Source: an uncultured Verrucomicrobiae bacterium
GTDB lineage: Bacteria > Verrucomicrobiota > Verrucomicrobiia > Limisphaerales > Palsa-1400
NCBI GenBank assembly: GCA_963764165.1
Contig: CAVXRD010000003.1
Location: 704,001 to 768,000 of the forward strand
Length of the DNA: 64,000 bases
Reading direction: 5' to 3'
The position numbers were made by a program, and so were the translations under genes. This document shows, in pieces, positions 15,077-35,935 of the stretch. The first letter of the stretch is position 1. Each line of letters opens with the position of its first letter. The notes beneath the pieces were generated by a model. That model made no database searches and had not been told where the DNA came from. It saw only the letters and a program-made list of their open reading frames with translations.

Positions 15077-16741
15077 TTATCCAACAACCTCCTGCTGGCG
15101 ATCATCTTCAAAGAGCGGGATCTCGTCGGTTTCGGCGATCTTGCCATAGTCCAATTTGACCAGCCGATCCGCCATGTAGAAATAACGGTCGTCATGCGTG
15201 ATCACCAGCACCGTCTTGCCGCGAGCCTTCAGGTCGGGCAGCAATTTCGTGTAGAACACTTTCTTGAAAATCGGATCCTGGTCGGAGGCCCACTCGTCAA
15301 ACAGGTAGAACGGGCGGTCCTCCAGATAAGCCGTGAGCAACGCCAGGCGTTTGCGCTGGCCGGTGGAGACCGACGTCGTGGAAAGCTTGCCGTTAGTCAC
15401 GCGAATCTTGTGCTTGAGGTGCAGTTGCTCGAGATAACCGCCTGCCCGCGCGTCAATGTCTTTGTCATCGATGCCAAGCAGGTTATCGAAGACAAAGAAG
15501 TCCGAAAACACCGCCGAGAACAACTGGCGGTAAGAGTCACGCGTTTTGTTGGTGACGGCTTTTCCGTCCAGACGAATTTCGCCCCCTTCCGGCAGGTAAA
15601 GGCCGGTGATGATTTTGGCGAGGGTGGATTTTCCGCTGCCGTTGCCACCCACCAGGAACACCAATTCGCCGCGGTTGAAGGCCAGGTCAATCGGCCCCAG
15701 GGTAAAGCTCGTGTCCTCCATTTCGCGATGATAGGTGTGGCTCACATTGCACAGCTCGATGCGCTCAAAGGATTGCTCATTCGCCGGCTTGTCGACTGGG
15801 CATTCTTCAGTGGAGCGCTCAGAAAGGGAAACGCCCAATTCCTGCACCTTTTGCAGTGCCACTTTGGCGCGGCCAAACAGCGAGATGCTGCTCAAGACCG
15901 CCGCCAGCGGCCCCATCATAAACAGCGTCGTCACGACATATCCCGTCATCGTCGCAGTGCTGATGGTCGACATATGAGGCGCCATAAACAAAATCAGCCC
16001 TATCAAGGCGAAGTAAAGCAGGTGGCTCCAGCTCTGCGCCGCCGCGAAGCGAACTTCCGCCGCGACATTGTGCTTTTGAAACGACGTGGTCACATTCTCG
16101 ACGTTGCGGGTCAGAAAGGCGCCCCGGCGGTCGCGGTGCAGTTTCAATTCCTTGATGCCATCGGTGAGCGCGCGGAAGTAGCCGAACAAACGGTCTTCAT
16201 CTTCCCGCGCTGCGCGGCAGTAGCGCAACGCGCTGGATACCACGACGAGATACCCCCCGGCGCCCAGCGCGATGACAACCATGATCGATGCCAGCATTTG
16301 CCACGACAGCCATCCAAGGTATATCGCGCCGCCCGCCAGGATGGCGATGTTTACCGATAAGATCGGCACCGCGAGCAAGGCCTGGGTGATGTTTAGAACG
16401 TCATCGGTCAATGCCGCCAGAATGCGGTGCGTGCCGAGATTCTCCAAATCGCGCAGCGGCACGGCAAGAATTTTTTTCACCAGGTCACGCCGCAATTCGG
16501 CGACGGCGCGCTGCGAGAATCCAGCCAGCACGGCTTGCGACAGGAACAGCGAGACAACTTTGCCAATGCCCAATCCGACGAAAGCCCAAATCAGCCCCCT
16601 GCTCGCAGAACCCGCATTGTTCATGGCCTTCGTAATCAGGGCCATCAGGCCGGCGTTGCAAACGCCGCTCAAGGCCGCCATCCCGATGGTAGCGAAGACA
16701 AGCCCGCGACAAGTGCGGAGGATGAATTTTAATAGCGTCAT
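15077..16741 (-). CDS. Cyclic-peptide export ABC transporter (SyrD/PvdE/YojI family)
   Basis: TM domain plus GGNGSGKST, STGQRKRLAL, LFDEWASDQDP, DGIKELKL; ATGA overlap with the NRPS stop. Confidence 0.95.
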   Translation of the reverse strand: MTLLKFILRTCRGLVFATIGMAALSGVCNAGLMALITKAMNNAGSASRGLIWAFVGLGIGKVVSLFLSQAVLAGFSQRAVAELRRDLVKKILAVPLRDLENLGTHRILAALTDDVLNITQALLAVPILSVNIAILAGGAIYLGWLSWQMLASIMVVIALGAGGYLVVVSSALRYCRAAREDEDRLFGYFRALTDGIKELKLHRDRRGAFLTRNVENVTTSFQKHNVAAEVRFAAAQSWSHLLYFALIGLILFMAPHMSTISTATMTGYVVTTLFMMGPLAAVLSSISLFGRAKVALQKVQELGVSLSERSTEECPVDKPANEQSFERIELCNVSHTYHREMEDTSFTLGPIDLAFNRGELVFLVGGNGSGKSTLAKIITGLYLPEGGEIRLDGKAVTNKTRDSYRQLFSAVFSDFFVFDNLLGIDDKDIDARAGGYLEQLHLKHKIRVTNGKLSTTSVSTGQRKRLALLTAYLEDRPFYLFDEWASDQDPIFKKVFYTKLLPDLKARGKTVLVITHDDRYFYMADRLVKLDYGKIAETDEIPLFEDDRQQEVVG

Positions 16742-19700
16742 GTTGATAATAATGCCGGCTGGTTTTCTGCGGTGGTGGTTTTTTGAGTTTCCTTAAGGGC
16801 TGCCGTCAAATCCGCGGCCAGGGTCTTGACGTTGGGCTCCATAAAGATGTTTTCGTGCGAACCAGGAATGAGTCTGACACTGACTTCTCCCGTGGTGAGC
16901 TTGCCCCAGCTCAAATCATGCGCAAACGAGCAGAGCATCGGATGCCCGCGCGTGCGGAACAGCGCAAGATTCCCCGTGCAGGGCTGCTGCACGTGGCGGT
17001 GAAGGGCTTGCAAATGCTTTCGCCAGAGCTTGAGTTCGTTTTCCGGGAAAAGCGCCGGGTCGATGATTTCCTCCAGGTCGACCGGGGCCTCGCCCTGCTT
17101 TCTCTTGATCCGCTTGGCTATTTTGCGGCCAATCGAGCGAATCTTTCTCCCGACAAAACGCCAGCGGTCGCGGGCCGGAACCTGCTTGAAATCTTCCAGC
17201 CAGTAATAGGTGTTGCGGGCGAACAGGAAGAAGAATTGCGGCTTCCACCATTCCACGGATTCGTAACCGACATTGACCGGCGCGGCATCCAGCAGGGCCA
17301 TCAGCGCAACCTGCGCGCCTTCGGCTTGGAGCTGGCGACCCATCTCGTAGGCCACGTTGCCGCCGAAACAATAGCCTCCGATGTAATACGGCCCCTCCGG
17401 CTGCTGGGCGCGAATGGCCTGCACGTAATACGCGGCCATCTCTTCGATGGTGTCGAATTCCTCCAGGCCAATTTGCCCGCGGGAACGCAGCGCAAAGATC
17501 GGCTGGTCGCGATCCATATGCACCAGCAAATTGGCGTAGCCCCATAGCACATCGCCGCCCGCGCCGTGGACCAGGAACAGCGGCGGCTTGCTGCCATTGG
17601 GCTGAATGGGAATGACCACTGAGTGCGATACGGCGGATTTTGCCTTGGAAAGAACCGCCGCCAATTGGCCGATCGTCGGCGCCTGAAACAAAGTGACAAG
17701 CGGCAGCTTCTGGCCGGTCATCTTTTCGACTTGGGCGAACAGTCGAACCGCGAGAAGCGAATGCCCGCCGAGTTCAAAGAAATCGTCCGCGGTCCCGACG
17801 CGCTCGACGCGCAGGAGCTTCTGCCACAACTCGCAAAGCTCGCGCTCAATTTGCGACTGCGGCGCAACGTAACGGCCGCCCGCCCCCGGACGCAACGCCA
17901 GGCGCGCTTCGATTTTTTGGTGAATTTTCGCGGCGTCGTTCAGTTCGGCGGCAATGGCGCGGCACTTGGTGAATTTCTTCACCGCGCCCGGCGCCGGAGT
18001 GGATTTGCCTTCGGTTGACGCCGGAGCAACGGGCGATTCGCTGCGCGGGGTAAATTCGACTTTGGCCGCAAATTCCGGCGGGAATTGATATTGGCCGCCT
18101 TGCTGGAATTGCGTCCCGATGCTCTCCAGAAAATCCAGCGCGGGCTTGTTCCGCGGCAGCCGCTCGAACGGGACATTCACCCATTTGGAATGGTGCTGCG
18201 CCGCCGCTTTGCCGAGGGCCTGAAGCATGCGATGCTCCACGCCGCGGCCCAGCGCGCGGCAACTCAGGAGGAATGAATCCACCACCAGCGCCTGGCCGCT
18301 AAAACTAAAAATCATCGCTCCGACCAGGCCGTAATCGCCGAAGCGATCCTTCACGGAAACGGTCCAGATTTCGGAGACTCCCGCCAACTGCTTCACTTCG
18401 CTCTCGGTGCGCCGCTTGCCGTTGACGTTGAATTGATTGGTGCGCTGCGTCAATTGTGACACGCGCGCAAGCTGCGCGGGCGCGGCCGGCGCAATGTCCA
18501 CCTGCAATTCCAGCTTGGCTATGAAATCCGCGAAGTTCGTCGATTGCGACTGCAGCTGCTCGCGCAATTGATTTTGCTGATACATCGCGGCGCGGCCCTT
18601 GTCCTCCGCCGTCGTCTTAAGCTGATCGAACGCCCAGCAGTGATCGAGAAATTGCGGGATGGCTGAAACATCTTCGGGCAACTGCAGAGCGAGAACTTCC
18701 GGGCTGTTGCCTTCCACTTCCGCGCATTCGACGGGGTTGTCGTCGATCAGCACAAAGCTATCGAGCCCAAGTTTCAATTCCTGCGCAATGGATTTGATGT
18801 TTTCTGATTTCGATTTCCAATTCACCCGCCACGCGGAAATGTGCTCGCGCAAAATCGGCATGGCGGGCCCTTTTGCGAACACCGCTTCCACGTCCGCTTC
18901 ATCGTTCTTGCTGCAAATCACGAGCAATTTGCCCGCCTCGCGCTGGCGCAGGACAAAATTTTGCAGGGCCACGCGCCCGGCTTCCAAACGAATCCCATTC
19001 GGTCCATCTTCGCCGCAAACGCCCGACCAGAGCGTATTGTCGCAATCCAGCGCGATGACTTTGCACGGAGGACGGCGCAGGGCATGAAATTTCCGGGCCA
19101 GCATGGTGGCCAGCGAGGTAAAGAACAGGGGCGTGTAGGGAATCCGGCCGAGCTCGTCGCCCGCGGGATCATCATAATCCGCCACCGGATACTTCTGTGA
19201 AAGCTCGGCGCTTGTCACGACATGGACGCCGTCAATCCCATGGAGCGTCACGGTGAGCGCCGTTTCTAGATCCTTCAGGGCTTCAGCCTTGGCTGGCTCC
19301 GCCAGCGCCATGCGCGAAGGCGGGCAGAAACAGACCAGCATCGACGCGCCGCCGCGGGCGGCTGCGCTTTGCACCGCGCTGACAAACTCGTCGGCGTGAT
19401 GTTTGATGGCTTGCCCAAATGTCAGCGCGCCGGACGCCCCTGTGTTTGACTCCCAATCATTCAAGCGAATCAGCAAAACATTCAGGCCATTGCGATTGGT
19501 GGCGAGATCGCTTTGGGAATCCAGCAATTGCTGGAAGACCTGATCGTAGGGCGCAAACTTGATCCGGGCGGAAATTTCCAATTCATCCAGCCAGAAGCGC
19601 AGCGGCTCCTCAATCGGCTCTGCCGTGAACGTTCCGCAAATCGCGATGGTTTCGGGCTGCGCGCGCTTGGGGGCTTTCAGTTCCACATCGGCAATCACCG

Positions 19701-22700
19701 TCCGCGGCGCTTCCGCCAGCATTTGCAAAACGGATTGGAAGGAGGCCAGCAATTGCTCAATCGATTTTTGATGGAACAAGCCCGCCTTGTATTCGCACGT
19801 CAGAGCAAGGCCGGCCGGCATTTCGTTGGCTTCAAAGCGGAGGTCGAGCAGCGCGGCTTCGGTGTTGACAACAATGGGAGCGCTCGTGATTCCCTCGCCG
19901 AATTGCGGCAGGTCCGGCGTGTTTTGGTAGAGCAGCGCCACATTGTAAAGCGGATTGCAGCCCGGGCGGCGCTCCACTTTGGCTGATTCCACTATTTTCT
20001 CGAACGGACAATCCTGATGCGATTGGCTTTCGATAATCTCCGCCTTCACCGCCCGCAGCGTTTCGAAGCCCGCCGCCGCGCCGGAAATTTTGAAGCGCAA
20101 TGGCAGGAAGTTCATGAAACAGCCAATGAGACCCTCAATCTCGCGGCGATTGCGGCCAGCCACCACGGTGCCGAGAACCATGTCCGTTTGGCCCGTCCAT
20201 TTGTGCAGGGTAATCGCCAGGGCGGCCATCAGCACCATGAACGGTGTTCCGCCTTCGCGCTGGCTCAATTTCACAATTTCCGCGCTCAACGCCTGCGGCA
20301 GCTCCACCGCAATCCGGCCGACCTTGGCTTCGGTCTGTTCCGCATTATCCGAGTCGGTGGGAAGTTCGACTGCGACAGGCGCGCCCGCCAATTTCTGCCG
20401 CCAATACGCCAGCTCCCTTTGCTCGGTGGCGCCTTGCAGCCAGCGGCGCTGCCATTGGGCGAAGTCCGCGTATTGCACGGGCAGCGGCGCAAAGTTGGGC
20501 GCGCTATTTCCCGAAACGATGGCGCGGTAGCTCGTTTCCAGCTCCCGGAAAAATACGTCCAGCGACCAGCCATCCGACACCGCGTGGTGCATCACAATGA
20601 GCAAAGCGTGATCGGTCGCGCTCATGCGGGCCAGCCTGGCGCGGATCAACGGGCCCCGCTCAAGATCAAATGAGCGATGCGCTTCGGCTTGCAAAACTCC
20701 GGCCAATTTCGATTCGTCGGCACCCGGAATCTCCGTCACCCACACTTGCACGCTCAATGACGGCGCAATTTTCTCCGACAGAACCCCATCAACAAAATGG
20801 AGGGTCGTGCGAAGCGCTTCGTGGCGGTCAATAATCAAATCGAGGGATTTCTGAAGGGCGGCCACATCGAGCGCGCACTTGATGCGGATCGCGGTCGGAA
20901 CGTTGTAAGCGTCGCTCTTCGGCTCAAGCTGGTTCAAAAACCACAGTTGATCCTGCATGAAGGAAGCGGGCAAGACGCCTTCGCGCGAAATCGGCTCCAG
21001 CGCTGGAACCGGCGCATTCGAATGATTCCAGCGCCCCGAATCCACTCCCGCCGCCAGGGCCTCGACCGTCGGCGCATCAAACAAGCAGGACAGCGGCAAT
21101 TCGATGCCGAGGCTTTCGCGCAGGCGCGAGATGACCTGTATGGCGGTCAGCGAATGGCCGCCTAATTCAAAGAAATGATCCGTCGCACCGATATCCTTGA
21201 TCCCCAATACTTCGCTCCAGGCTGCGGCAACCTTCTTTTCGGCATCCGTGCGCGGCGCGATCAATCCCGTGCGGGCTTCGCTCTGCCCAGCCTGCGGGGC
21301 AGGCAGCGCGCGGCGATCCACCTTGCCATTCGGCGTCAGCGGCAATTTTGGCAGGAACACGAATTGCGCGGGGGTCATGAACTCGGGCAAACGCTCCCGC
21401 GTGCAGCGGCGCAAATCATCGACCGAGGCCGTTTTCCCCGCGTTGAACACGACATAGGCCGCCAGATATTTTTCGCCGGGCCGGTCTTCACGCGCGATGA
21501 CCACCACTTCCGCCACCGCCGGATTGGCCTTGAGAGCGATTTCGATTTCGCCCAATTCAATGCGGAAACCGCGAATTTTGACTTGATGGTCGGAGCGGCC
21601 GAGATACGTCAGATTCCCGTCTTCGCGCCAGCGGGCGACGTCACCAGTTTTGTAGATGCGCGAACCCTGCTTGTAAGGGTGCGGCAGAAAACGCTCGGCG
21701 GTGAGGTCGGGGCGGTTCAAATAACCGCGCGCCACTTTATCACCGCCGATATAAAGATCGCCCGTCATGCCCACCGGCAGGGGCTGCATTTGTTTGTCAA
21801 GAATATAGACTTGCTCGTTGGCCAGCGGACGGCCGATGGTCGCCGGTTCGCCTGTTTTGCGCAGGGCGCCCGTCGAATAGGTGGTCGTTTCGGTCGGGCC
21901 GTAAAGATCGTAAACCTTCTTCGCTGACGTCTTGGAATAAATTTGCTCCACCAGCGCGGTGGCCAGCGGCTCGCCCGCAAGATTGACAACTTTGACTGAA
22001 CTGGGCACGCCGTTGATGCGGAGCAATTCGCGCATGGCCGATGGCACGGTGTTGACCAGAGTGACTTCCGAAGCGGCAGGCAGGCCCGGCAGAGCAAGCG
22101 CGTTGTCGGCCAGGATAATTTTTCCGCCCCAGCAGAGCGGAACGAACATTTCGTAAACGGAAAGATCAAAACACATCGAGGTCGACGCGAGCATTCCCGC
22201 GTACTCCTCGGGCAGAAACGCATCCTTCGCCCAGCAGACCATGGCCACGGCGTTGCGATTTTCCAGGGCGACGCCTTTCGGCTGTCCGGTCGAGCCGGAG
22301 GTGTAGAGCACGTAAGCCAAATCGTTTGGCCCGGCTTGATTCAAAGGAGCTGTCTTGTCGGAGATTGGCTGGATGTTCTCGACGAGCAGCACCTGGGTTT
22401 TCGAGGCGGGAATCAATTCGCGGAAACGCTCGCGTGTCAGCAACACGCGCAATCCAGCATCCTGCGCGATGGCCGCCAGGCGCGCCTTCGGATAAGTGGG
22501 ATCCAGAGGGACATAAGCTCCGCCCGCTTGAAGTGTTCCGAGAATCCCGGCCACCATATCCTCGGAGCGCTCGAGGCAGATGCCCACCAAAGATTGGTTG
22601 CCCACCCCTAAAGCTTGCAAACTCTTCGCAATGGTTGCGGCGCGCTCGTAAAGCTCGCGATACGTGAATCGCTTTGTCCCCACCACGAGCGCCTCCGCAG

Positions 22701-25700
22701 TGGGCGTCCGCGCGGCCTGTTCATTGAACAATTGGGCGAGCGTCTTTTCGCGCGGGTATTCCAGTTGCGTGCGATTCCATTCATTCAGAATCGTCTCCGA
22801 TTCCGCCGGGGTCAAAATAGACAGCTTGGACAGGGGCTGTTCCGGCGCCGCGACCAGAGACTGCAGAGCGGTTTCCACATGCCCCAGCATCCGTTGCGCC
22901 GTGGCGCGATTGAACAAATCCGTTGCGTATTCCAATCGGAAAACCGGCCCCAGTTCGTTGTCAAGAAGGCAGAAACGCAGGTCGTATCCCTCCACGATGG
23001 ATGGCGCCTCGGTCGCGAAAAAGACCTGCGCAATCGGGTGATATGAAGAATCCGCCGATGGGCAAATTTGCGCGATGACGTCCTTGAACGGGATTTGCGA
23101 ATGCTGGACGGCGGCAGTTTTGGCGGTGCGAACGCGGTCGAGCAAATCACGGCCCGTCATTTCCGCGGCCATGCGAGTGCGGACCACGGCAATGTTGGCT
23201 TTATGGTCACTGCCCGTTTGCAAGCCAACCGGCAGATCGTCCTGCCCGGAATACCGGTTTAAAACGACATCGAGGGCGGCCAGCGCCAAGGCGGCCCGGT
23301 CGCCGGTTTCCATTTTTGACGCCAGCGAGCGCGGCAAAGGCCGGGTTTCTGTGGCCACCGCTTTGGATAATACCGCTGGACGAGTGCGGTCGGTGGGCAA
23401 TTCCAAAAGTGCGGGTGCGCCCGCCAGCTCACGCTTCCAGAAATCCATATCGAGTTCCCTGCTTTGCTCCAGAACTTTCTTCAGTTCGGCTGCTGTTTCA
23501 TCCACCCAGGGCTCCTCCAAAACCTTCTCATGGGCGCCCTGGACGATGGTGATATTGACTCCGCGGCGGGCGAAATCGCCCCAGCCGTAATCCTGCTCGA
23601 AAGAGCACCATAACGGGTGGCCCGGGCTGCGGAACAGGTGAACACGGCCTTCGTATGGTTTTGGATGAAACTTTCGCAAGGCCAGAATATGGCTTTGCCA
23701 CAATGCGCGCTGGTCAGCCGGAATGGTGGCAAGGTCAACCAGATTTTCCGCGTCATTGGCGGCCGAGCCATTGCCGCCGCCGCCAAGCAAACGGGAAAGC
23801 TTTTGTTTGACACGGCGCGTTTTCCAGAGAATGAAATCGTGGCGCTGGGCCGGGGTCCATTGCCGGCAGTAATCGGCCCAGTAAACCAGATTTTTGGCGA
23901 ACCGCAGCCCCCACGCAGGGGTATAACTGAATTGGGTGTAGCTCGAGTTCGGCGGAGCGCAATTGAGCAGCGCCAGCAAGGCGACTTTTTCGCCCTGCGC
24001 CTCGATTTGCCGCGCCATTTCAAAGGCCACGTTTCCACCGAAACAATATCCGCCGAGATAGTAGGGGCCGTGCGGCTGGATGCGGCGCATATCCTTGACA
24101 TATTGCGCGGCCATTTCCTCCATGGTGTCGAATTCCTGGTGGCCGTTCAGCCCGCGGGAACTCAATCCGTAGACAGGCTGGTCCGCGCCAAGCCGGCGGG
24201 CAAGATTCACGTAGCCCCAGAACATTCCGCCACCCGCTCCGTGGACGAGAAATAACGGAGGCTGTGTTCCCTTGGGCTGCAACTCGACAACAGACGTTCC
24301 GGCGGTGGCGCTTTCGTCGCGAATCTCGTCACGCACCACCACTGCCAGCTTCTCCACGGTCGCCGCGGTAAAGATCGCCGCGAGCGGCAGTTTTTTCCCG
24401 AAGGCCTTCTCAATGCGCGCGGAAACTTTGACGGCCAGCAGCGAATGGCCGCCCAGATCGAAAAAATTATCCTCGATGCCAACGGGTTCGACGCCCAGCA
24501 CGCTTTCCCAAATGCGGCACAGCTCCAATTCGACAGCGTCCCTCGGTGATGCGTATTTGCGCGTCAATGTGGGACGGGCGTGGTCCGGCTCCGGCAGGGC
24601 GCGGCGATCCACTTTCCCGTTGTGTGTCAGCGGAAGGGATTCGATTTGCACGAACGCCGAAGGAATCATGTATTCCGGAAGATGTTCGCCAAGAATGGCG
24701 CGCAACTGATTCGGCTTGGGCGCGAGTTTTCCATCCGGGACATAGTAGGCCACCAGGCGGGTCTGGCCGGCTCCGGAGCCGCAGACTTTGACCGCGCATT
24801 CGCGCACGCCAGGGCAGCGTCCCATCACGGCTTCGATTTCGCCCAACTCGATGCGATAACCGCGCAGCTTTACCTGGTTATCGATGCGGCCCAAATACTC
24901 GACGTTCCCATCCGGGAGCCAGCGGGCGAGGTCCCCGGTGCGATAGAGGCAGACACAGGGGCTGTCTGCGCTAAATTGATGAAGAACAAATTTCTCAGCG
25001 GTGAGCTCCGGACGATTCCAGTAGCCCTTGGCCAACCCGTCGCCACCGGTATACAACTCGCCCGGAACGCCAATTGGGACCGGATTGCGATTCGCGTCAA
25101 GTATATAAACCTGGGTATTCGAGAGCGGCTTGCCAATCGGCACGTTCGTCGCATTTTCTGGAATGTCGCGCAGGAGAGCGCAACAGGTGAATGTCGTGTT
25201 CTCGGTCGGGCCGTAACCATTGACGAGGCGGTGCGGCGGGCGGTCTTTGAGCACCGCGCGCACCCATCGCGCATCCAGCGCTTCGCCGCCGGCCATCACG
25301 GTCCGCATGGTGGCAAACGCGCCGGGAACCTCCGAGGCCACCTGGCTGAACAATGCCGAGGTCAGGAACATCGCGGTGATGCCCTGCTCGCGCAATTCCG
25401 CCGCAAAATCCTTCGGCGAGAGCGCAATGTCCGTTGCGATGCCGCGCAATTGCCCGCCGTTGAGCAGCGAGCCCCAAATTTCAAACGTCGCCGCGTCGAA
25501 AGACATGTTCGACACTTGGGCGATGCGGTCGGTCGCATCCAGCTGGATATAGTTCGTCTTGAAAACCAAACGATTCACGCCGAGATGCGGCACGGCCACG
25601 CCCTTGGGCTGGCCTGTCGAGCCGGAGGTGTAAATGATATAGGCGGTGTCCGTCGGCTTGGTGCGATTTGGAAGATTCTCGGCGCTCTCGCGCTGGATTT

Positions 25701-27555: not shown

Positions 27556-30500
27556 TTGAGTTCCTTCTCATCCAATTCCAACAGCAACTCTTCAACTTCA
27601 CTGTCGGAAAGCTCGTCGATGCGATCCAAAAGACGCTGGGCTCGCGACGTTTCATTTCGGCGGAGTTCAATGCCAGGCTGCGAGGCAGTTTGCCGTTCCG
27701 CGGACACGACTTCGCGGGCCATTCCCGCGACGGTGGGCGATTCAAAAATGACGCGCACCGGCAATTCGATCTGCAATGCCTTGGCGATGCGGGACACAAT
27801 CTGCGTCGCCAGCAGGGAATGTCCGCCGAGGTGGAAAAAATTGTCGTTGATGCCGATCCGGTCCCGTCCGAGGATTTCACGCCAGATGTCCGCGAGCAAA
27901 ATCTCGGTCGGATTCCGCGGCGCTTCGCAGGCCTCGGCTTCCGCTTTTGCGAGTTCCTCGGGAGCGGGCAGCGCGCGGCGATCCACTTTTCCGTTGGGCG
28001 TCAGCGGCAGCTTGTCCATCGGCACGATATGCGACGGGACCATGTAGGATGGCAGCTTGATCGAAAGAAATTCGCGCAACTGAAGGCTGGCAGGCGACGT
28101 GTCCGCGCGCAGCACGACATAAGCGACCAACTGTTTCGTGCCCGAATGATCTTCCCGCGCCACCACCAGCGCCTCACGCACCGATTCATGGGTCATCAAG
28201 GCGGCCTCGATCTCACCCGGCTCAACCCGGAAGCCGCGAATCTTCACTTGTTCATCTTTGCGCCCGATGAATTCGACATTTCCATCTGGGAGCCAGCGCG
28301 CCAAGTCGCCGGTTCTATAGAGATGCTCCGGGCCGAACGGATTGTGGACAAATTTTGAATCCGTAAGTTCCGGACGATTCACATAACCGCGCGCGACGCC
28401 ATCTCCGCCGATGTAAATTTCCCCGATCGCGCCCTGGGCCACGGGCCTCATGGCAGCGTCCAAAATATAAATTTGCGTGTTCGCGATTGGCCGCCCAATC
28501 GGCACTGAGGCGCGGCCAGCCCAATTTTTTGGCACGCGATAGCAGCAGGTAAATGTCGTGTTTTCGGTCGGGCCGTAACCATTGATAAATTGCGTGTTCT
28601 TCAATTCCCGCACGGCCTTGAGCACATGCGGAACGGATAGCGCCTCGCCTCCGGCCAGCAGGAAACGCAGGCCCTGCAAGCTGGCCAATTGGTTGTCAAT
28701 CATTTGATTGAACCAGCCGGAGGTCAGCCAGAGGGTCGTGATTTTATGCCGCTGCACGAAATGGCCCAATTCCTCCAAGGACGGCATTTGCGGCGGATGC
28801 AAAACCAGTTTCGCGCCGTTGGCCAGGGCGCCCCAAATCTCAAAGGTCGACGCGTCGAACGAAAGAGTCGCCAATTGCAGAAAAACATCGTTTGGGCTGA
28901 ATTCGACAAAGTCCGTATTCCGCACCAAGCGCCCTATTCCGCGATGTGTCACGGCAACCCCCTTCGGCCGGCCAGTCGAGCCGGAGGTATACATGATGTA
29001 GGCCATATCCGTCGCTTTGGGCGCGCGGACTGGGCTGTTGCGGAGACGGCCGCCACCGACCGGCCAATTTGGATTGTCGAGGCAAAGAATCTGTTCGCCA
29101 GGGGCTGGAATGGCGCCACGGTAGCGTTCGCGGGTTACGACAAGGCTGGCCTTCGAGTCTTCCAGCATCATCGCATTGCGGGAAGCTGGATTGGCGGGAT
29201 CGAGCGGAAGATAAACCGCGCCCGTTTTCAAAATCGCGATGAGCGCCACAATCATGTCAAGCGAACGCTCGACGCAAAGGCCGATCACCGTCTCCACCCC
29301 TGCCCCGGCTTCGGTGAGTTTCGCCGCGACCAGGTTGGCGCGATGATTCAACTCGCCATAGGCGATTTCGCCATCTTCGCAGACCAGCGCAATGGCCGCC
29401 GGATTTTTGGCAACCTGCTTCTCGAAAAGCTCATGCGCGCAGGCGTCACGCTCGTATTCGTTCGCCGCACCCAACCCAAGCTTCATCGATTTCTCGCGCT
29501 CCGTGTCGGTTTCCAATTCAAATTCCGAAATGCGCAGCGCGGAATTCGCGAGAATATTTTCAACGAGAACGCGGTATTGCTTCGCCCAGCGCTCAATCGA
29601 GGGCGCGTCATACAAATCCGTGCTGTATTCGATGCGAATATCGAGATGGCGCCTCCCTTCCGTGACCAGCAGCGTGAAATCGAATTTCGCGGCGCCGCTC
29701 TCGAGTTCGACCCGACTGGCGTTCAAGCCAGGGATCGTCCAGCCGTCCGAAAAATCCCGCTGCAAGCCAAAAGCCACCTGGAAGAGCGAATTGGCGGCCA
29801 AATTCCGTTCACCGCCGAGGGCGCGGACGAGATAATGCAGCGGCGGTTGCTGCCCCGCGCCAGCGCTCATCGACGTCTCGCGAACGCGCTTGAGCAGCTC
29901 CGCAAAGGTGGGATTGCCAGCCAGACCGATCCGCAGGGCGCGAGTATTGACAAAGAAACCGATCAGGTTTTCGGTTTCCAATTCGTCGCGTCCCGAGAAG
30001 GGGGAACCAATCACCAAATCTTCCTGCAAAGTGGCGCGTTGAAGCAAAATGGCAAAGGCTGAAAGCAACACCTGGTAGACTGTCGAACCTTCTTTGCGCG
30101 CGAAATCCTTCAGTTTCGCCGCGAGCGGCTCGGGCCAGTTTGCGAACAGCGCCGTCCCGCGATGGCTCGTCATTGCCGGGCGCGGACGGTCTCCCGGAAA
30201 ACTGGTGAGCGGCGGTGCGCCGGCGAGCTGCTTCTTCCAAAATTCCACGCCTTCCCGCATCTGATCGCTCTGGGACATTTCGCGCTGCCACAGCGCGAAA
30301 TTGCCGTATTGAATCGGGAGTTCGGGAAGATCTGACTCACGGCCAGCGTCAAAGGTTTTATAAAGCGCCGCGAGTTCACGAAGGAAAACGCCCACCGACC
30401 ATGCATCGGAAATGATGTGATGCATGTTGATGGCGAGAAGATTCTTCCGGTCACTGACACGGAAAAGGCTCACGCGCATCAGCGGCTCTTGGGTCAAGTC

Positions 30501-30848
30501 GAAGGATTTTCTGGCATCCGCCCCGGCGAGACGGACCGCCTCGGCCTCACCGCTGGCCTGTAGCCGAAGATCGGTAACGGACAGCGGAAAAGGCTTGGGC
30601 GGAAAAACGATCTGGCAGGGCTTGCCATCCTTGGAACCGAGCGCGGTGCGCAAACTTTCGTGGCGGCGCACGATTTCGTTCACGGCATATTGCAGCGCGG
30701 ATAGGTTCAGGGCGCCATCGAGCCACCACGCCTCGGCGATATTGTAGGTTGCCGTGTTGGGCGTGGCTTGCTCAAAAAACCAGAGTCCCTCTTGTGGCCA
30801 TGACAGGGGGAGCACGCCTGCCATATTTTGAACCGATTGGTCCTGCAC
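27552..30848 (-). CDS. NRPS 2: C-A(Val)-T with acidic C-terminal docking helix
   Basis: HHIISDA, YTSGSTGRPKGV, code read as DAFWLGGTFK, GGHSL, tail IDELSDSEVEELL. Confidence 0.95.
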   Translation of the reverse strand: MQDQSVQNMAGVLPLSWPQEGLWFFEQATPNTATYNIAEAWWLDGALNLSALQYAVNEIVRRHESLRTALGSKDGKPCQIVFPPKPFPLSVTDLRLQASGEAEAVRLAGADARKSFDLTQEPLMRVSLFRVSDRKNLLAINMHHIISDAWSVGVFLRELAALYKTFDAGRESDLPELPIQYGNFALWQREMSQSDQMREGVEFWKKQLAGAPPLTSFPGDRPRPAMTSHRGTALFANWPEPLAAKLKDFARKEGSTVYQVLLSAFAILLQRATLQEDLVIGSPFSGRDELETENLIGFFVNTRALRIGLAGNPTFAELLKRVRETSMSAGAGQQPPLHYLVRALGGERNLAANSLFQVAFGLQRDFSDGWTIPGLNASRVELESGAAKFDFTLLVTEGRRHLDIRIEYSTDLYDAPSIERWAKQYRVLVENILANSALRISEFELETDTEREKSMKLGLGAANEYERDACAHELFEKQVAKNPAAIALVCEDGEIAYGELNHRANLVAAKLTEAGAGVETVIGLCVERSLDMIVALIAILKTGAVYLPLDPANPASRNAMMLEDSKASLVVTRERYRGAIPAPGEQILCLDNPNWPVGGGRLRNSPVRAPKATDMAYIMYTSGSTGRPKGVAVTHRGIGRLVRNTDFVEFSPNDVFLQLATLSFDASTFEIWGALANGAKLVLHPPQMPSLEELGHFVQRHKITTLWLTSGWFNQMIDNQLASLQGLRFLLAGGEALSVPHVLKAVRELKNTQFINGYGPTENTTFTCCYRVPKNWAGRASVPIGRPIANTQIYILDAAMRPVAQGAIGEIYIGGDGVARGYVNRPELTDSKFVHNPFGPEHLYRTGDLARWLPDGNVEFIGRKDEQVKIRGFRVEPGEIEAALMTHESVREALVVAREDHSGTKQLVAYVVLRADTSPASLQLREFLSIKLPSYMVPSHIVPMDKLPLTPNGKVDRRALPAPEELAKAEAEACEAPRNPTEILLADIWREILGRDRIGINDNFFHLGGHSLLATQIVSRIAKALQIELPVRVIFESPTVAGMAREVVSAERQTASQPGIELRRNETSRAQRLLDRIDELSDSEVEELLLELDEKELK

Positions 30849-30922
30849 GGTTTAAAGAGTAGGAATTTGCGGATTAAATAAACAGTAGGTGATGACCTAA
30901 CCTCGCATGGTGGAAACCCCGC

Positions 30923-33900
30923 TTAAACACCCGCTTTGACCACGCGGGCGCGGCGATTTGTGATTGTGGGACGCGGCGTCGAAGCCGCTTTCGCACCCTG
31001 CATCAATCCCGCCAGCGATGCCACGGTGGGATTCTCGAAAATCGCACGCAACGGCAGATCCAAGCCGAACCGGCGATTAATCCGGGCGAACGCCCGCGTG
31101 GCCGAAAGGGAGTCCGCGCCCAATTCAAAGAAATCGTCCTCGATGCTGATTTGGCGGAGAGTAAGAACTTCCTCCCAAACTTCCACCAGCGCCTTTTCCT
31201 GTTCGTTGCGCGGGCCGACGTAATTTCGCGGTGAAGCGCTCGTTTCCTCGGGTGTGGGAAGTCGGTTCACATCGATTTTGCCATTCGGTGTGAGCGGAAA
31301 TTCCTTCAACGCGACGAAGTGCGCGGGAACCATGTAGCCAGGCAGTTTCGCGCGGAGGAATTCACGCAATTCCGCCGATTCCGGCGCGCCGTTGCGTGTC
31401 GTAAGGTAAGCCACTAACCGCTTCTCACCGGCGCCGATTTCGCGGGCGGTGACGACGGCATTGGTGATCTCCTCGTGCTGGCGGAGGATCGTTTCGATTT
31501 CGCCCAGTTCGATGCGGAACCCGCGAATTTTCACCTGTTGATCGGCGCGGCCAAGGCACTCGACAGTGCCATCCGGCAGATAACGCGCGAGGTCGCCCGT
31601 TTTGTAAATGCGGCTCTTGCCATCGTTGCGGAACGGATCAGCGATGAATTTATCAGCCGTCAATTCAGGCCGGCCAAGATAACCGCGCGCAAGGCCGTCG
31701 CCACCGATGTGCAATTCGCCCGCCACGCCGACAGGTACGGGTTGGAGTTGATGATCGAGAATGTACAACTGCGTGTTGGCAAGCGGACGGCCGATCAAAA
31801 TCGGGCTCTTCGGCTCTACTTTCCAAGCTGTCGACCAGATCGTCGTTTCCGTCGGGCCGTAGAAATTCCATAAGCCCGCGACTTTTCCGGCGAGGCCGTC
31901 CGCCAGGGTGCGGGTGAGGGCCTCGCCGCCGCAGAGGACGCGAAGATCGCGTTTGCCAGCCCAACCGGATTCAATCAACAAGCGCCATGTTGTGGGTGTT
32001 GCCTGCATGACGGTGGCTTCGGAGGATTCGATCAACTCGGCCAGGCGAGGCCCGTCAGCCGTGACGGATTGCGGGGCCAGTGTCAATTGCGCGCCTGAAA
32101 TCAGCGGAAGGAAAATTTCAAGACCCGCAATGTCAAACGAAAGCGTGGTCACGCTGAGTAACTTGTCCGTTGCCTTGAAGCCGATGGTTTTGCCAGCCGA
32201 GAGGAGTAGATTCACCACCGCTTGATGACCCACTTGCACGCCTTTGGGCCTGCCAGTGGAACCGGAGGTATAAATTACGTAAGCAAGGCCGTCGGACTTC
32301 GAGGTCGAGGTGACGTTTTCGTCGGCGCGCCCGTAATCGAGCGAATCAACGGAAATCACGTCGCCATCCAAAATCGGAACTGATTGCAAGGCACTGTTCT
32401 CGGTGACGAGAACCGTCACCTTCGCATCGTCGAGCATGAAGGAGAGGCGGTCGCGGGGGAATGCAGGGTCAAGCGGTACGTAAGCCGCGCCAGCTTTCAG
32501 AATTCCCAGCAATCCGGCCACCATGTTCACGGAACGGTCGACACAAATGCCCACCAACGTGCCCGGGCCGACTTCCAGGCTCTTCAGTTTTGCGGCGACG
32601 TCGTAGGCGCGGCGGTTGAGATCGCGATACGTCAACTTTTCCCCACCCGCCACGACAGCGATTTGCGCAGGCACTTCGGCGGCTTTGCGCTCGAACAAAC
32701 TGTGAATCGTCTCGGTTTGCGGATAGGACTCCTCGGTTTTGTTCCATTCCACCGTCAACCGTTCCCGCTCAGCCGCAGGCATTGGCGAGAAGGTTTCGTA
32801 GCGGGCATTTGGATCCTGCGCCATCGCGCGAATAGTGCTGCCATAATAGGCTGACATTTCCTCAATTTGGCGGCGGCAAATTCGGTTCGGATCGTAATCA
32901 ATGTGGTATTCCAATTTCGTTCCCGTCGTGTCGAGAATGAACGACGTGAAGGCCGGGAGATCGTTCGCTTCAAAATAATAGCCGTCGCGCAAATCAATCC
33001 CGCCTTGGAGATCGTTGTAGACGTGGAATTGCACGAAATCGAAGGCGGATTCGAACACGGGACGCCCGCCGTTCAGTTTCGTGACTTCCGCCAGCGGGAA
33101 CCTGCGATAGGGGGCGATTTCGCGCTCCGCGGCAAAGCATTGCTTCACCAATTCGATCCACGTCCCGCCTTTGAGTGAGAAGCGCAGCGGCAGCGTGTTC
33201 AGGAACAGGCCGATCACTTTTTCGCCATCGACGACTTCCGGGCGGCCGTTGCACAGGAGGCCGCTCATGACTTCGTTCTGTCCGTAAATGAGGCTCACCA
33301 CGCGTTGATGCGCGGCGAGCAAAACTGTCTTGAGCGGCACGCCGGCACGGCGGGCCAGCTCTTTCAAGCCTTGCAGAACTTCAGCGTCAACAAACGTTTC
33401 CGGGCCGCGCTTTTGTTCGAGCCCGCCTTCGCACATGGATTTCGGCCAGCGCGGCATCGTTTGCAGATTCGCGCCCGCCAGTTTTCCGGTCCAAAATGCG
33501 CGCGTCTCGGCATCGGCGATCGTCTTCGCTTCGAGCGCGGCAAAATCGCGATAGGTGGTCTCCGGCGGCGCAATAACTTTGCCACCGCCGCTTCGCAGCG
33601 CCGCGTAGTCCTCCATGATTTCCGTCAAGACTGCGGCGAGGCTCCAGCCGTCCATGCAGGAATGATGGAAGCTGATGATGAACTGGAATGAATTTTCCGA
33701 CAGCCGCTGCGCGTGAAATCGGATGAGCGGCGCCGTCGTCCGGTCAAATGGCATCCGCTTTTCGTTCTCAATCCAATCGACGACAGATTTCTCCTGCTTG
33801 TCCGGCGCGAGGTCGCGCAGATCGTCCACCGTCAGGCGGAATCGCGCCTGGCGGTGCACCAATTGCAGCGGCTCGCTGTAACCAGCGATGTGGAATGAAG

Positions 33901-35935
33901 TCCGCAAAATAGGATGACGCTGAATCAGGAGGCTGATGGCGTCGTTCAACTTCTCCTGATCGAACGGGGCGTCGATGTGATAGCTGAAAACGTCGTGGTA
34001 AACAGCAGACTTGGGATTCAGTTCGTTGTGGAAGAACATGCCCAATTGCAACCGCGCCACAGGATACGCATCTTCCACGTCATCGGGCAGGCGCTTGCGG
34101 TCTTCCGCCGAGACGAGGTCGAACGGGCGGCTTCGCGGCGCTTGGCCTGCTTGACTCGACGCCGTGGCGCAGGCGGCCATGCCAGCGACGGTCGGGTGTT
34201 GAAACATTTGCTGCAACGAGAGCGTCAGCCCCTGCCCTTGTGCGCGCGACAAAACAGAGATGCTGCGAATCGAATCGCCGCCCAGTTCAAAGAAATTGTC
34301 AAATACACCCACTTGCCCGACACCGAGCACTTCGCTCCAAATGGCGGCAAGTTTGGATTCAGTTTCGTTTCGCGGAGCGGTGAATTCTTTTTCAAGGTCG
34401 GGGCGCGCGTCGTCCGGAGCCGGGAGGGCGCGGCGGTCCACCTTGCCGTTGGTGTTCAGAGGCAGAGACTCCAGCACGATGAATCGCGCCGGGATCATGT
34501 AATTGGGAACGCTTTTGCCGAGATGCTCGCGCATTTCCGTCACCGAAGGCGCGGCTGACTTGGGCACAATGTAGGCGATGAGGCGCTTGTCGCCTTCGTC
34601 GCCGTCGCGGGCCAGCACGACGCTTTCGCGGATGGCCGGATGGCGGTTGAGGGCCGATTCGATTTCCCCAAGCTCCACTCGGAAGCCGCGAATTTTCACC
34701 TGGTGATCCATGCGGCCGAGGTATTCCATCTCGCCGGATTCGGCGATGCAGGCCAGATCGCCGCTGCGATACATGCGCGCGCCCGGGACGTTTGAAAACG
34801 TGTCTGGCAGGAAGCGCTTGGCCGTGAGGTCGTCGCGTTTGAGGTAGCCACGAGCCACGCCGTCGCCGCCGACCACAATTTCTCCGACAACGCCTTTCGG
34901 AACTGGCTTGAGGTTTTCGTCGACGAGATAAATCTGAAGGTCTGGAATCGGAACGCCGATAACGCTGCCATTGCCATTCGTCAGGTCGATTTGACGAATC
35001 GGACGGTAGGTTGAGTGGACGGTGGTTTCCGTGATGCCGTACATGTTGACGACAGTCGGACGTTGATCGCCGTGACGTTCAAACCACGGCTTCAAGCTCT
35101 GCAATTCGAGGGCTTCACCCGCGCAAATGACATAGCGCAGGTTCAAATCCAATTTCTTCTCCGCAATCGTCTCCGCCCAGATGACCTGGCGGAAGGCCGA
35201 CGGCGTCTGATTCAGGACGGTCACTTTTTCGCGGGCAAGGAGTTCGTAAAACTCAGAAGGAGAACGGCTTACGAGATAAGGCACAATCAGCAAGCGAGCG
35301 CCGTTCAACAGCGAAGCCCACAATTCCCACACCGAAACGTCAAACGCATACGAGTGGAACAGCGGGAAGACATCCGTCGGATTAAATTGATACCAATGCG
35401 CCGTCTGGGTCAGCAGGCGAATCACGTTGTGATGCGTGACGATCACACCCTTCGGTTTGCCCGTGGAACCGGAGGTATATATAATATAGGCGGCGTTGTC
35501 GCCCTTTACGCCGCTTTCCACGCTCGCGGTTGATTCCTGGGCGATGACGGGCCAATCCGCATCCACCCGCAAAATCCGAGCGGATCCAGCCGGCAATGCC
35601 GCCGCGATCTTCTCCTGTGTAATAACGACCGGCGCTTCCGCGTCTTCCAGCATGAAAGTGAGGCGGTCTTTCGGGTAGGTGAGGTCGATGGGGACATAGC
35701 AGCCACCCGCCTTCAGCACGCCCAGAATCGTTACCACCATCTCGAGAGAGCGGTCAAGATACAGGGCCACAGGCACTTCCGGCTTGACGCCCATTTTCCG
35801 CAAATGCGCCGCGAGCTGGTTGGAGCGCTCATCGAGTTCCTTGTAAGTCAGAGATTTTTCGCCCAGATTAATGGCGATGGTGTTGGCGTGTTGGCGCGCG
35901 CTTTCCTCAAAGGCTTCGTGGAGAACGTTTTTCAT
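30923..35935 (-). CDS. NRPS 1: A(Thr/Ser-like)-T-C(modAA/dehydrating-like)-A(Gly)-T
   Basis: Starts with an A domain (NMYGITETTVH); T GGDSI; C with QLGMFFH, HHSCMDG, FDFVQFHVY; second A code DILQLGFIWK; T GADSL; start placed at MKNVLH (ORF is open to 36001). Confidence 0.93.
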   Translation of the reverse strand: MKNVLHEAFEESARQHANTIAINLGEKSLTYKELDERSNQLAAHLRKMGVKPEVPVALYLDRSLEMVVTILGVLKAGGCYVPIDLTYPKDRLTFMLEDAEAPVVITQEKIAAALPAGSARILRVDADWPVIAQESTASVESGVKGDNAAYIIYTSGSTGKPKGVIVTHHNVIRLLTQTAHWYQFNPTDVFPLFHSYAFDVSVWELWASLLNGARLLIVPYLVSRSPSEFYELLAREKVTVLNQTPSAFRQVIWAETIAEKKLDLNLRYVICAGEALELQSLKPWFERHGDQRPTVVNMYGITETTVHSTYRPIRQIDLTNGNGSVIGVPIPDLQIYLVDENLKPVPKGVVGEIVVGGDGVARGYLKRDDLTAKRFLPDTFSNVPGARMYRSGDLACIAESGEMEYLGRMDHQVKIRGFRVELGEIESALNRHPAIRESVVLARDGDEGDKRLIAYIVPKSAAPSVTEMREHLGKSVPNYMIPARFIVLESLPLNTNGKVDRRALPAPDDARPDLEKEFTAPRNETESKLAAIWSEVLGVGQVGVFDNFFELGGDSIRSISVLSRAQGQGLTLSLQQMFQHPTVAGMAACATASSQAGQAPRSRPFDLVSAEDRKRLPDDVEDAYPVARLQLGMFFHNELNPKSAVYHDVFSYHIDAPFDQEKLNDAISLLIQRHPILRTSFHIAGYSEPLQLVHRQARFRLTVDDLRDLAPDKQEKSVVDWIENEKRMPFDRTTAPLIRFHAQRLSENSFQFIISFHHSCMDGWSLAAVLTEIMEDYAALRSGGGKVIAPPETTYRDFAALEAKTIADAETRAFWTGKLAGANLQTMPRWPKSMCEGGLEQKRGPETFVDAEVLQGLKELARRAGVPLKTVLLAAHQRVVSLIYGQNEVMSGLLCNGRPEVVDGEKVIGLFLNTLPLRFSLKGGTWIELVKQCFAAEREIAPYRRFPLAEVTKLNGGRPVFESAFDFVQFHVYNDLQGGIDLRDGYYFEANDLPAFTSFILDTTGTKLEYHIDYDPNRICRRQIEEMSAYYGSTIRAMAQDPNARYETFSPMPAAERERLTVEWNKTEESYPQTETIHSLFERKAAEVPAQIAVVAGGEKLTYRDLNRRAYDVAAKLKSLEVGPGTLVGICVDRSVNMVAGLLGILKAGAAYVPLDPAFPRDRLSFMLDDAKVTVLVTENSALQSVPILDGDVISVDSLDYGRADENVTSTSKSDGLAYVIYTSGSTGRPKGVQVGHQAVVNLLLSAGKTIGFKATDKLLSVTTLSFDIAGLEIFLPLISGAQLTLAPQSVTADGPRLAELIESSEATVMQATPTTWRLLIESGWAGKRDLRVLCGGEALTRTLADGLAGKVAGLWNFYGPTETTIWSTAWKVEPKSPILIGRPLANTQLYILDHQLQPVPVGVAGELHIGGDGLARGYLGRPELTADKFIADPFRNDGKSRIYKTGDLARYLPDGTVECLGRADQQVKIRGFRIELGEIETILRQHEEITNAVVTAREIGAGEKRLVAYLTTRNGAPESAELREFLRAKLPGYMVPAHFVALKEFPLTPNGKIDVNRLPTPEETSASPRNYVGPRNEQEKALVEVWEEVLTLRQISIEDDFFELGADSLSATRAFARINRRFGLDLPLRAIFENPTVASLAGLMQGAKAASTPRPTITNRRARVVKAGV

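What the first reader, a model, noticed from the sequence alone, without database searches (positions are those of the whole stretch)
15077..35935. Non-canonical five-module NRPS with two cysteine thioesterases and a glycerate module
Seen: three co-oriented NRPS genes plus a coupled SyrD/PvdE exporter; domain order A-T-C-A-T | C-A-T | C-A-T-TE-halfC-A-T-C-FkbH-T-TE; no starter C, E or MT domain. By-eye Stachelhaus codes: DVWNIAMVHK (Thr-family variant), DILQLGFIWK (Gly), DAFWLGGTFK (Val), DAFFMGGTFK (Val/Ile), DLYNNALTYK (Ala). Inference: a product such as (dehydro-Thr/Ser)-Gly-Val-Val/Ile joined to Ala-glycerate. I do not recognise this architecture from any characterised cluster.
Basis: partly seen in the sequence, partly recalled or inferred. 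Interest (0 to 1): 0.88.

Follow-up and report, generated by a model that had tools for sequence, protein, structure and literature searches.

The report
Peptide assembly line tied to sugars
This is a real, conserved and undescribed peptide-building enzyme cluster of uncultured Verrucomicrobia in which two short assembly lines are fused, and its gene company suggests that it likely attaches the peptide to a sugar chain rather than releasing a free antibiotic-like molecule.

Summary
The scan noted this family before on other DNA (e1-2377261). The cluster holds two lines. Line 1 (Thr-like, dehydrating C domain, Gly, Val, Val/Ile) ends in TE1, which has Cys-His-Asn in 118 of 118 homologs. Line 2 always restarts without a working C domain (Ala, then glycerate) and ends in TE2 (Cys-His-Asp). 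New here is a link to a glycan operon 10 kb away that holds the PPTase. Its WecG gene occurs in 59 of 63 genomes with this TE family, against 33 of 337 without. Nine line-1-only genomes instead carry a stand-alone A(Pro)-T-TE beside a Wzx flippase. In five such genomes tested, the SyrD-type exporter was not found. Best reading (0.45): both thioesterases transfer acyl groups and build a peptide-sugar conjugate. Two nearby control genes also co-occur within the family, and no product is known. Verdict: new variant of a known kind.

The parts
30923..35935 (-). N1: A1 (DVWNIAMVHK, Thr-like variant)-T-C(dehydrating class)-A2 (Gly code)-T; start of line 1, no starter C
32747..34081 (-). C domain of the modified-amino-acid (dehydrating) class, motif HHSCMDG, after a GGDS carrier
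   Evidence: McyA 8JBR E 1e-120, AmbE 7R9X 3e-63, next class 4e-43
27552..30848 (-). N2: C-A3 (Val code)-T
16738..27555 (-). N3, 3605 aa: C-A4 (Val/Ile)-T-TE1-halfC-A5 (Ala)-T-C-FkbH-T-TE2; end of line 1 fused to the whole of line 2
23461..24279 (-). TE1: Cys1171-His1342 with Asn1198 at the usual acid position; internal; member of an Asn clade
22786..23460 (-). Half C domain (C-terminal lobe, no HHxxxDG); remnant of a dead or deleted module, so line 2 re-initiates at A5
18076..20970 (-). Glycerate module: C domain with intact HHAVSDG, then FkbH (DxD motif)
16786..17604 (-). TE2: Cys3396-His3567-Asp3423, terminal
15077..16741 (-). SyrD/PvdE-type exporter, overlapping the end of N3; commonest neighbour (36 of 58 genomes with fetched loci)
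48282..49061 (-). HetI-like PPTase, overlapping gene Y upstream and WecG downstream
46847..48295 (-). WecG/TagA/CpsF glycosyltransferase with two STAS domains; co-occurs with the TE family
45685..46830 (-). GT4 glycosyltransferase, paired with WecG in nearly all loci viewed
49054..50202 (-). Gene Y, 382 aa, no Pfam family; weak lead to polymerase-beta nucleotidyltransferases; present in 9 of 10 TE-positive and 0 of 14 TE-negative genomes of the family
50180..51064 (-). GT2 glycosyltransferase of the same operon
56356..57579 (-). Phosphodiesterase-family gene; first gene of the conserved glycan operon in relatives, here separated from GT2 by about 5 kb

Best explanation
The cluster is two NRPS lines fused in one gene, and both cysteine thioesterases likely act as acyl transferases that build a peptide-sugar conjugate instead of releasing a free peptide. 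Line 1 is predicted to make X-Gly-Val-Val/Ile, where X is a Thr/Ser-type residue likely dehydrated by the C domain of N1; with no starter C it would end up as a 2-oxoacyl cap or be acylated by an unknown partner. Line 2 restarts at A5, because no working C domain follows TE1 (shown). It is predicted to load Ala with a free amine and esterify it to glycerate loaded by FkbH. TE2 would hand Ala-glyceryl to a sugar acceptor made by the GT2-Y-WecG-GT4 operon. TE1 would move the tetrapeptide onto the free Ala amine or onto a second site of the same sugar. The SyrD-type ABC would export the conjugate, in place of the Wzx flippase seen in line-1-only relatives. Shown: domain anatomy, triads, conservation, gene neighbourhoods, co-occurrence. 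Inferred: substrates, every transfer step, the acceptor.
For: (1) TE1 and TE2 are separately conserved: Asn in 118 of 118 TE1, Asp in 98% of 119 TE2, Cys and His invariant. All 30 internal TEs of 86 sampled are Asn-type and form one clade, support 92, quick tree. (2) Line 2 always restarts: bare A, half C, or a full-length C lacking HHxxxDG in 7 of 7. (3) In one sample of 401 genomes of the order, the WecG ortholog is in 59 of 63 genomes with this TE family and 33 of 337 without, unpublished G223 dropped; within family f11 5 of 5 against 2 of 19. The genes are often far apart (G270, G007), so linkage alone does not explain it. (4) The PPTase sits directly after gene Y in the glycan operon here and in 8 relatives; three TE-negative genomes have a polysaccharide pyruvyltransferase in that slot. 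(5) A C-less A(Pro)-T-TE(Cys) gene lies directly before a Wzx flippase in 9 of 9 loci seen. In family f1 it is in the 5 line-1-only genomes and none of the 6 fused-type ones. (6) Exporter swap: no SyrD-type ABC in 5 of 5 line-1-only genomes tested; no close Wzx match in 5 of 5 fused-type genomes. (7) A stand-alone FkbH-T-TE(Cys), 41% identical over its length, lies inside a polysaccharide locus of Aquisphaera giovannonii. (8) The residue after TE1 switches among Ala, basic and Pro about 15 times on the TE1 tree with no TE1 column tracking it, and Asn-TEs keep their signature in G143, G178 and G073, where no FkbH was found.
Against: No product, expression or biochemical data. Controls weaken the co-occurrence: in family f1 PqiA is in 9 of 10 TE-positive and 3 of 14 TE-negative genomes (it lies near the operon in three genomes), and GH15 in 6 of 10 against 1 of 14, so shared ancestry and linkage explain part of it. 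Two other controls were too rare to inform. Kin are not independent. SyrD/PvdE exporters are annotated as cyclic-peptide exporters. D116N left only trace activity in the Cys-TE MacB (PMC13288461 section 8), so TE1 might be slow. None of 41 metagenome loci gave a second stand-alone FkbH-T-TE in a glycan locus. G199 has both a Wzx-like gene and the ABC. The basic lid helices are not specific to this family. G132 and G371 end in TE(Asn)-A-T-TE(Asn)-A-T with no final release domain, which fits chain transfer inside the line as well as or better than transfer to a sugar.
Confidence: 0.45

Rival explanations
1. Colinear free depsipeptide: TE1 stands in for the missing C domain and ligates the tetrapeptide to the amine of Ala on its carrier; the next C esterifies the pentapeptide to glycerate; TE2 releases X-Gly-Val-Val/Ile-Ala-glycerate for export. 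The glycan genes are fellow travellers or late tailoring enzymes.
For: TE1 sits where a C domain should be and the C there is always dead or absent. TE(Asn)-A-T repeats as a unit in G132, G371, P0255 and P0244. 17 of 62 Cys-Asn TEs are followed in-chain by an A or C domain against 3 of 69 Cys-Asp/Glu TEs. Peptide-to-glycerate esters are known in cystomanamide (PMC9581180 table).
Against: 39 of 62 Cys-Asn TEs end their polypeptide. G143, G178 and G073 have a terminal Asn-TE and no FkbH hit. No TE1 residue tracks the downstream amino acid. It leaves the A(Pro)-T-TE/Wzx and exporter swap unexplained.
Confidence: 0.25
2. Two independent products: line 1 is released by TE1 (slowly, or to a small nucleophile) and line 2 makes alanyl-glycerate; the fusion is only co-regulation.
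For: Line 1 occurs without line 2 (G007, G012, G030) and line 2 without an adjacent line 1 (G003, G164). The Asp-to-Asn change nearly killed MacB-TE.
Against: The Asn-TE keeps invariant Cys, His and a private residue set across 118 sequences, unlike a decaying domain. The fusion is kept in most of the top 120 matches.
Confidence: 0.13
3. Permuted macrocycle like vioprolide: line 2 is the starter; TE2 passes Ala-glyceryl to the amine of the Thr-like residue on T1, which allows dehydration; TE1 closes the ring on the free glycerate hydroxyl.
For: It explains the missing starter C; characterised dehydrating C domains act on N-acylated Ser/Thr. TE-type shuttles between carriers exist (LgnA). The A1 code departs from the canonical Thr code only in fused-type genomes.
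Against: The same A-T-C(dehydrating) start exists in genomes with no FkbH hit. Other family members carry their own N-terminal C domain and still have line 2 (G095, G138).
Confidence: 0.1
4. TE2 closes the glyceryl thioester to a beta-lactone warhead, as the Cys-TE of obafluorin does.
For: Cys nucleophile; a free 3-hydroxyl would be beta to the thioester if the 2-hydroxyl is the one acylated (regiochemistry recalled, not read).
Against: ObiF and SulM place the acid after strand beta7 (PMC11298585); TE2 has it after beta6. The same TE family also ends lines with Val/Ile, where no lactone is possible.
Confidence: 0.05
5. The 3605-aa gene is a chimeric misassembly.
For: No reads could be laid.
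Against: Same fused order in five other genomes at 59-67% identity and in 47 further database proteins.
Confidence: 0.01

Closest known systems
FR900359 (FrsA with FrsD-G) and salinamide (Sln9); PMC7794379, passages read
   Same: Two NRPS lines, each ending in a TE, one of which joins separately made parts by acyl transfer.
   Different: Here both lines are fused in one polypeptide, both TEs use Cys, one has Asn in the triad, line 2 has no starter C and ends in glycerate, and glycan genes travel with the system.
Vioprolide, corramycin and cystomanamide C-FkbH-T modules; PMC10099666, PMC8949500, PMC9581180, passages read
   Same: FkbH replaces the A domain, loads glycerate, and a C domain makes the ester.
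   Different: There the module is second (after a fatty-acyl starter) or internal; here it is last and followed by a Cys-TE.
Icosalide synthetase IcoA; PMC6553374, passages read
   Same: A second chain starts inside one NRPS subunit.
   Different: IcoA restarts with an embedded starter C and joins chains with a normal C; here the restart is a bare A domain behind a TE.
Dehydrating C domains McyA, AmbE, AzeB, LgnD (8JBR, 7R9X; bioRxiv 10.64898/2026.07.17.738954 and PMC8748450, passages read)
   Same: The C domain of N1 is closest to this class and follows a Thr-like A domain.
   Different: AzeB and LgnD act on N-acylated residues; here no acylating C precedes module 1.
Cys-type TEs AB3403 (4ZXH), MacB-TE, ObiF, SulM; PMC11298585 passages, PMC13288461 passages and section 8
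   Same: Cys nucleophile; AB3403 is the best profile match in the PDB and has the acid after beta6. Natural Asn variants of Cys-TEs are mentioned in PMC13288461.
   Different: Only 22-24% identity and TM about 0.65 to the best structures; no characterised Cys-His-Asn TE was found.
Carenaemin of Collimonas arenae; PMC8313283, passages read
   Same: A PKS-NRPS product whose activity depends on a Wzy/Wzx sugar-repeat locus; the authors propose attachment of the peptide to the sugar repeat. A polysaccharide pyruvyltransferase lies beside the PPTase.
   Different: Unrelated assembly line with an E domain; structure and linking enzyme not established in the passages read.
Dlt D-alanylation of teichoic acids (recalled, no call)
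   Same: An A domain and carrier deliver an amino acid to a surface glycopolymer.
   Different: One residue, MBOAT/DltD transfer, no C or TE domains; here whole peptides and TE transfer are proposed.

Membership tests
Modular bacterial NRPS | A, T and C domains with intact core motifs in modules | tested here: met
Canonical linear NRPS | One initiation and one terminal TE, with a working C before every extension module | tested here: not met
   internal TE and half C before A5
FkbH glycerate module (vioprolide type) | C-FkbH-T with DxD motif and active C | tested here: met
   TIGR01686 304 bits, LDCD, HHAVSDG
FkbH glycerate module (vioprolide type) | Preceded by a FAAL-ACP fatty-acyl starter | tested here: not met
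   preceded by A(Ala)-T
Dehydrating (modified-amino-acid) C domains | Sequence closest to McyA/AmbE class, after a Ser/Thr-type A domain | tested here: met
Dehydrating (modified-amino-acid) C domains | Dehydration activity | not testable with these tools
   needs in vitro off-loading
Two-line TE-joined systems (FrsA/Sln9) | Two lines each ending in a TE | tested here: met
Two-line TE-joined systems (FrsA/Sln9) | TE in the FrsA/Sln9 clade and shown to transfer acyl groups | not tested
   FrsA and Sln9 sequences were not in hand; activity needs bench work
Beta-lactone/lactam TEs (ObiF, SulM) | Cys nucleophile with the acid after strand beta7 | tested here: not met
   acid or Asn after beta6, no acid directly after beta7
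Icosalide-type double initiation | Embedded active starter C domain | tested here: not met
   C after TE1 is truncated or lacks HHxxxDG
Wzx/Wzy glycan-decorating system | Wzx flippase in the operon of this genome | tested here: not met
   no hit in G000 with two Wzx queries; a Wza/Wzc-Wzy locus lies about 51 kb from the NRPS
Wzx/Wzy glycan-decorating system | Co-occurrence and operon linkage with glycosyltransferases | tested here: inconclusive
   strong, but control genes also co-occur in family f1
A characterised MIBiG cluster | Same domain order with a known compound | not testable with these tools
   no MIBiG search; paper searches gave no match

The most novel reading that the evidence does not exclude
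Pedosphaerales-type Verrucomicrobia use full multi-module NRPS lines as glycan-decorating machines: a family of Cys-thioesterases, including a Cys-His-Asn clade that can replace a condensation domain, attaches whole peptides and aminoacyl-glycerate to a WecG/GT4-made sugar, in the operon slot that other lineages fill with a pyruvyltransferase.
Probability: 0.35. Interest if true: 0.9.

Novelty: new variant of a known kind. Interest (0 to 1): 0.72.

Why it matters
The TE family is in 63 of 400 sampled genomes of a mostly uncultured bacterial order (G223 dropped) and no product is described in the papers I could search. If the sugar link holds, these clusters, which genome mining would score as antibiotic candidates, would instead make peptide-bearing glycans or glycopeptides, extending Dlt-type logic from one amino acid to whole peptides. 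Even if it fails, TE1 is a natural, strongly conserved Cys-His-Asn thioesterase placed where a C domain should be. That makes a sharp, cheap test of TE-catalysed chain extension and a possible ligase for NRPS engineering.

Tried and rejected
Misassembly: rejected. Sequencing runs: none was listed, no RNA holder listed. Single-sequence fold of TE1 was poor, pLDDT 51; the alignment-based model was good, 86.8, but its fold search gave only generic type I TEs. Membrane binding by the basic, aromatic lid: not specific, two Ser-TEs from other clusters are as basic. TE1 co-variation with the next amino acid: none, best mutual information 0.23. Control genes: the second WecG (3 of 401) and the nitroreductase (1 of 24) were too rare; PqiA and GH15 were informative and cut against my reading. 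More stand-alone FkbH-T-TE loci: none among 41 metagenome loci, though such proteins exist without context. MbtH: not found in the own genome, control positive. A distant TE partner in ten WecG-positive, TE-negative genomes: only scattered PF00975 hits, none inside the WecG loci viewed; G291 has one about 26 kb from WecG, not examined. The careful TE tree did not finish; the quick tree was used. Gene Y: Atlas gave unnamed Verrucomicrobiota clusters and a sub-0.9 lead to nucleotidyltransferases. Word searches of earlier findings gave nothing. No complex prediction was run.


Full report
Observation. The window (G000, 7.0 Mb, 97% complete) carries N1, N2, N3 and an ABC exporter on the minus strand at the stated places. 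Pfam, NCBIfam and motif scans give A-T-C-A-T | C-A-T | C-A-T-TE-halfC-A-T-C-FkbH-T-TE. Titles of related records name Verrucomicrobiia and Pedosphaera.

It is not an artefact. Five of 60 relatives have the whole cluster in the same order (G001, G011, G017, G022, G025; N1 of G017 is split over contigs). Of 1812 proteins matched by the C-terminal part, I examined the best 120: 48 have this order (the window's own included), 36 insert a basic-residue module after TE1, 13 go from TE1 straight to a bare A (Ala or Pro), 5 have a full-length C there, and 18 are partial or other forms.

Line 1. The C domain of N1 is closest to McyA (E 1e-120) and AmbE (3e-63), far ahead of other classes, so dehydration of residue 1 is likely. 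AzeB and LgnD dehydrate N-acylated residues (passages); here no acylating C precedes module 1, so the cap is open: a 2-oxoacyl group or an outside acylation. The A1 code is DVWN[IV]AMVHK in the five fused-type genomes where it was read (G000 included) and the canonical DFWN[IV]GMVHK in line-1-only genomes. Across the order the start of line 1 varies: extra C-A-T genes, PKS hybrids, beta-Ala-type codes, or nothing adjacent, with a lone C-containing gene elsewhere in G180, G145 and G270.

The two thioesterases. TE1 and TE2 share invariant Cys and His. TE1 has Asn at the acid position in 118 of 118 sequences; TE2 has Asp in 98% of 119. The model puts this residue right after strand beta6, the usual position according to PMC11298585 (passages). 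Among 86 TEs from fetched loci, 30 of 30 internal ones are Asn-type, 28 of 28 after FkbH are Asp/Glu, and 7 of 28 other terminal ones are Asn-type; the 37 Asn-TEs form one clade (support 92, quick tree). Among 50%-identity representatives, 17 of 62 Cys-Asn TEs against 3 of 69 Cys-Asp/Glu TEs are followed in-chain by A or C, but 39 of 62 end their chain. G132 and G371 repeat TE(Asn)-A-T twice and stop. Against activity: D116N left trace activity in MacB-TE, although natural Asn variants are mentioned there (section 8 read).

Line 2 restarts. All 7 full-length C domains after TE1 lack HHxxxDG. The half C best matches the C before the Ala module of longer relatives in 4 of 5 comparisons, one tie, by small margins in some. 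The first residue of line 2 changes about 15 times on the TE1 tree without a matching TE1 change. The C before FkbH is intact. C-FkbH-T modules esterify glycerate in vioprolide and are described for corramycin and cystomanamide (passages); I did not read the primary vioprolide paper, and no supplement of any paper.

The sugar link. In the window the PPTase overlaps gene Y and a WecG-STAS gene, in a run GT2-Y-PPTase-WecG-GT4 about 10 kb upstream of N1; in G001 and G011 this run abuts N1. In one sample of 401 genomes of the order (at least 85% complete), the TE family (E at most 1e-40) was found in 64 and the WecG ortholog (E at most 1e-70) in 93. Without the unpublished G223: 59 of 63 against 33 of 337; family f1 9 of 10 against 2 of 14; f11 5 of 5 against 2 of 19. 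Four other NRPS-bearing genomes of f1 that lack this TE also lack the WecG (G002, G004, G014, G016). NRPS genes lay within the fetched stretch in 17 of 38 TE-positive WecG loci; 14 of the 38 were picked as NRPS loci, so that share is inflated. Gene Y is in 9 of 10 against 0 of 14 in f1. The slot after Y holds the PPTase here and in 8 relatives (not in G001 or G025) and a polysaccharide pyruvyltransferase in G284, G312 and G393. Eight of the 10 TE-negative WecGs sampled form one clade, most in long Wzx/Wza loci.

The strongest piece is a complementary pattern. Line-1-only genomes carry a separate A(Pro)-T-TE(Cys) gene with no C domain directly before a Wzx flippase: 9 of 9 loci seen, in three families. 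In f1 it is in 5 of 31 genomes, exactly the line-1-only ones, and in none of the six fused-type genomes; it was found in 4 of 5 further line-1-type genomes and in 0 of 5 with a terminal Asn-TE or an unterminated line. Five line-1-only genomes gave no hit for the SyrD-type ABC (no positive control in that call); five fused-type genomes gave no close Wzx (one 21% hit). Line 2 with the ABC therefore looks like the counterpart of A(Pro)-T-TE with Wzx. I found this gene; the later look-up showed two earlier notes with the same glycan reading for it, which are not independent proof. A stand-alone FkbH-T-TE(Cys), 41% identical, sits in a polysaccharide locus of Aquisphaera giovannonii; 41 metagenome loci gave no second case. 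Carenaemin offers a genetic precedent for an NRPS product that needs a Wzx/Wzy locus (passages).

Results against. Within f1, PqiA (9 of 10 against 3 of 14) and GH15 (6 of 10 against 1 of 14) also track the TE; both lie near these loci in several genomes, but they show that kinship and linkage can give such tables. G199 has both exporter types. The own genome has no Wzx hit, though a Wza/Wzc-Wzy locus lies about 51 kb away. Absences are from incomplete genomes, and one search scored only two candidates per genome.

Mechanism. I commit to two fused lines whose Cys-TEs transfer rather than hydrolyse, ending on a sugar acceptor (0.45). Next comes a colinear free depsipeptide with TE1 in the role of a C domain (0.25), then two products (0.13), a permuted macrocycle (0.10) and a beta-lactone (0.05). 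The first two share the idea that TE1 is an acyl transferase.

Comparison and novelty. It works like FrsA/Sln9 two-line systems and uses a vioprolide-type glycerate module, but fails the membership tests for canonical, icosalide-type and ObiF/SulM-type lines. Ten paper searches returned nothing on this family in the listings I saw; the library lacks most subscription papers and MIBiG was not available. The scan had noted the family on other DNA. Verdict: new variant of a known kind, interest 0.72; 0.9 if whole peptides prove to be glycan substituents.

Noticed in passing
L213:1501-4191 (G012), L214, L215, L216, L217, L224-L227: Stand-alone A(Pro)-T-TE(Cys) without C domain directly before a Wzx flippase; in G053, G137 and G078 it carries an extra N-terminal stretch of about 260 aa.
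   Followed up: partly
L103/L116 (G132), L104 (G371), proteins P0244, P0255: Repeated TE(Asn)-A-T units with no C domain between them; G132 and G371 end on a carrier with no release domain, and their TEs are nearly identical although the genomes are of different families.
   Followed up: partly
L024:11477-15533 (G030), L029, L038, L044, L046, L111: One or two DUF5122 beta-propeller genes with signal-like N-termini sit inside line-1-only clusters between the first and second NRPS gene.
   Followed up: no
L151:14953-17964: Aquisphaera giovannonii plasmid gene annotated as HAD-IIIC phosphatase is a FkbH-T-TE(Cys) fusion inside a polysaccharide locus; many context-free FkbH-T-TE proteins of about 1000 aa exist (P0210-P0240).
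   Followed up: partly
window 49054-50202: Gene Y, unnamed family with a GGYGRGE motif, conserved next to the GT2 gene in all operons viewed.
   Followed up: partly
L092 (G395), P0057: Variants in which glycerate is extended by a further Ala module or by a second FkbH module.
   Followed up: no
L058:3294-5572 (G270), L085, L087: A FeeM/GNAT-aminotransferase fusion and a PlsY-like gene lie near the cluster in three genomes of one genus.
   Followed up: no
G000 C2:2952700-2957340: A second small NRPS locus in the own genome: A-T gene, a 382-aa gene, and a C domain split by a stop.
   Followed up: no
window 38940-45536 and 52929-54797: Ig/laminin-G surface-protein genes on the plus strand interrupt the operon and separate it from the NRPS.
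   Followed up: no
window 13253-15073: GH15 trehalase-like gene 4 nt behind the exporter; also behind it in G001 and G011, elsewhere in other relatives.
   Followed up: partly
window 6892-10438: Epimerase, a second short WecG-family gene and a B12-binding radical SAM gene in a row; this WecG is rare in the order (3 of 401).
   Followed up: partly
L064:1-4044 (G166): Stand-alone FkbH and an MBOAT acyltransferase lie just downstream of the exporter of a Pro-type cluster.
   Followed up: no
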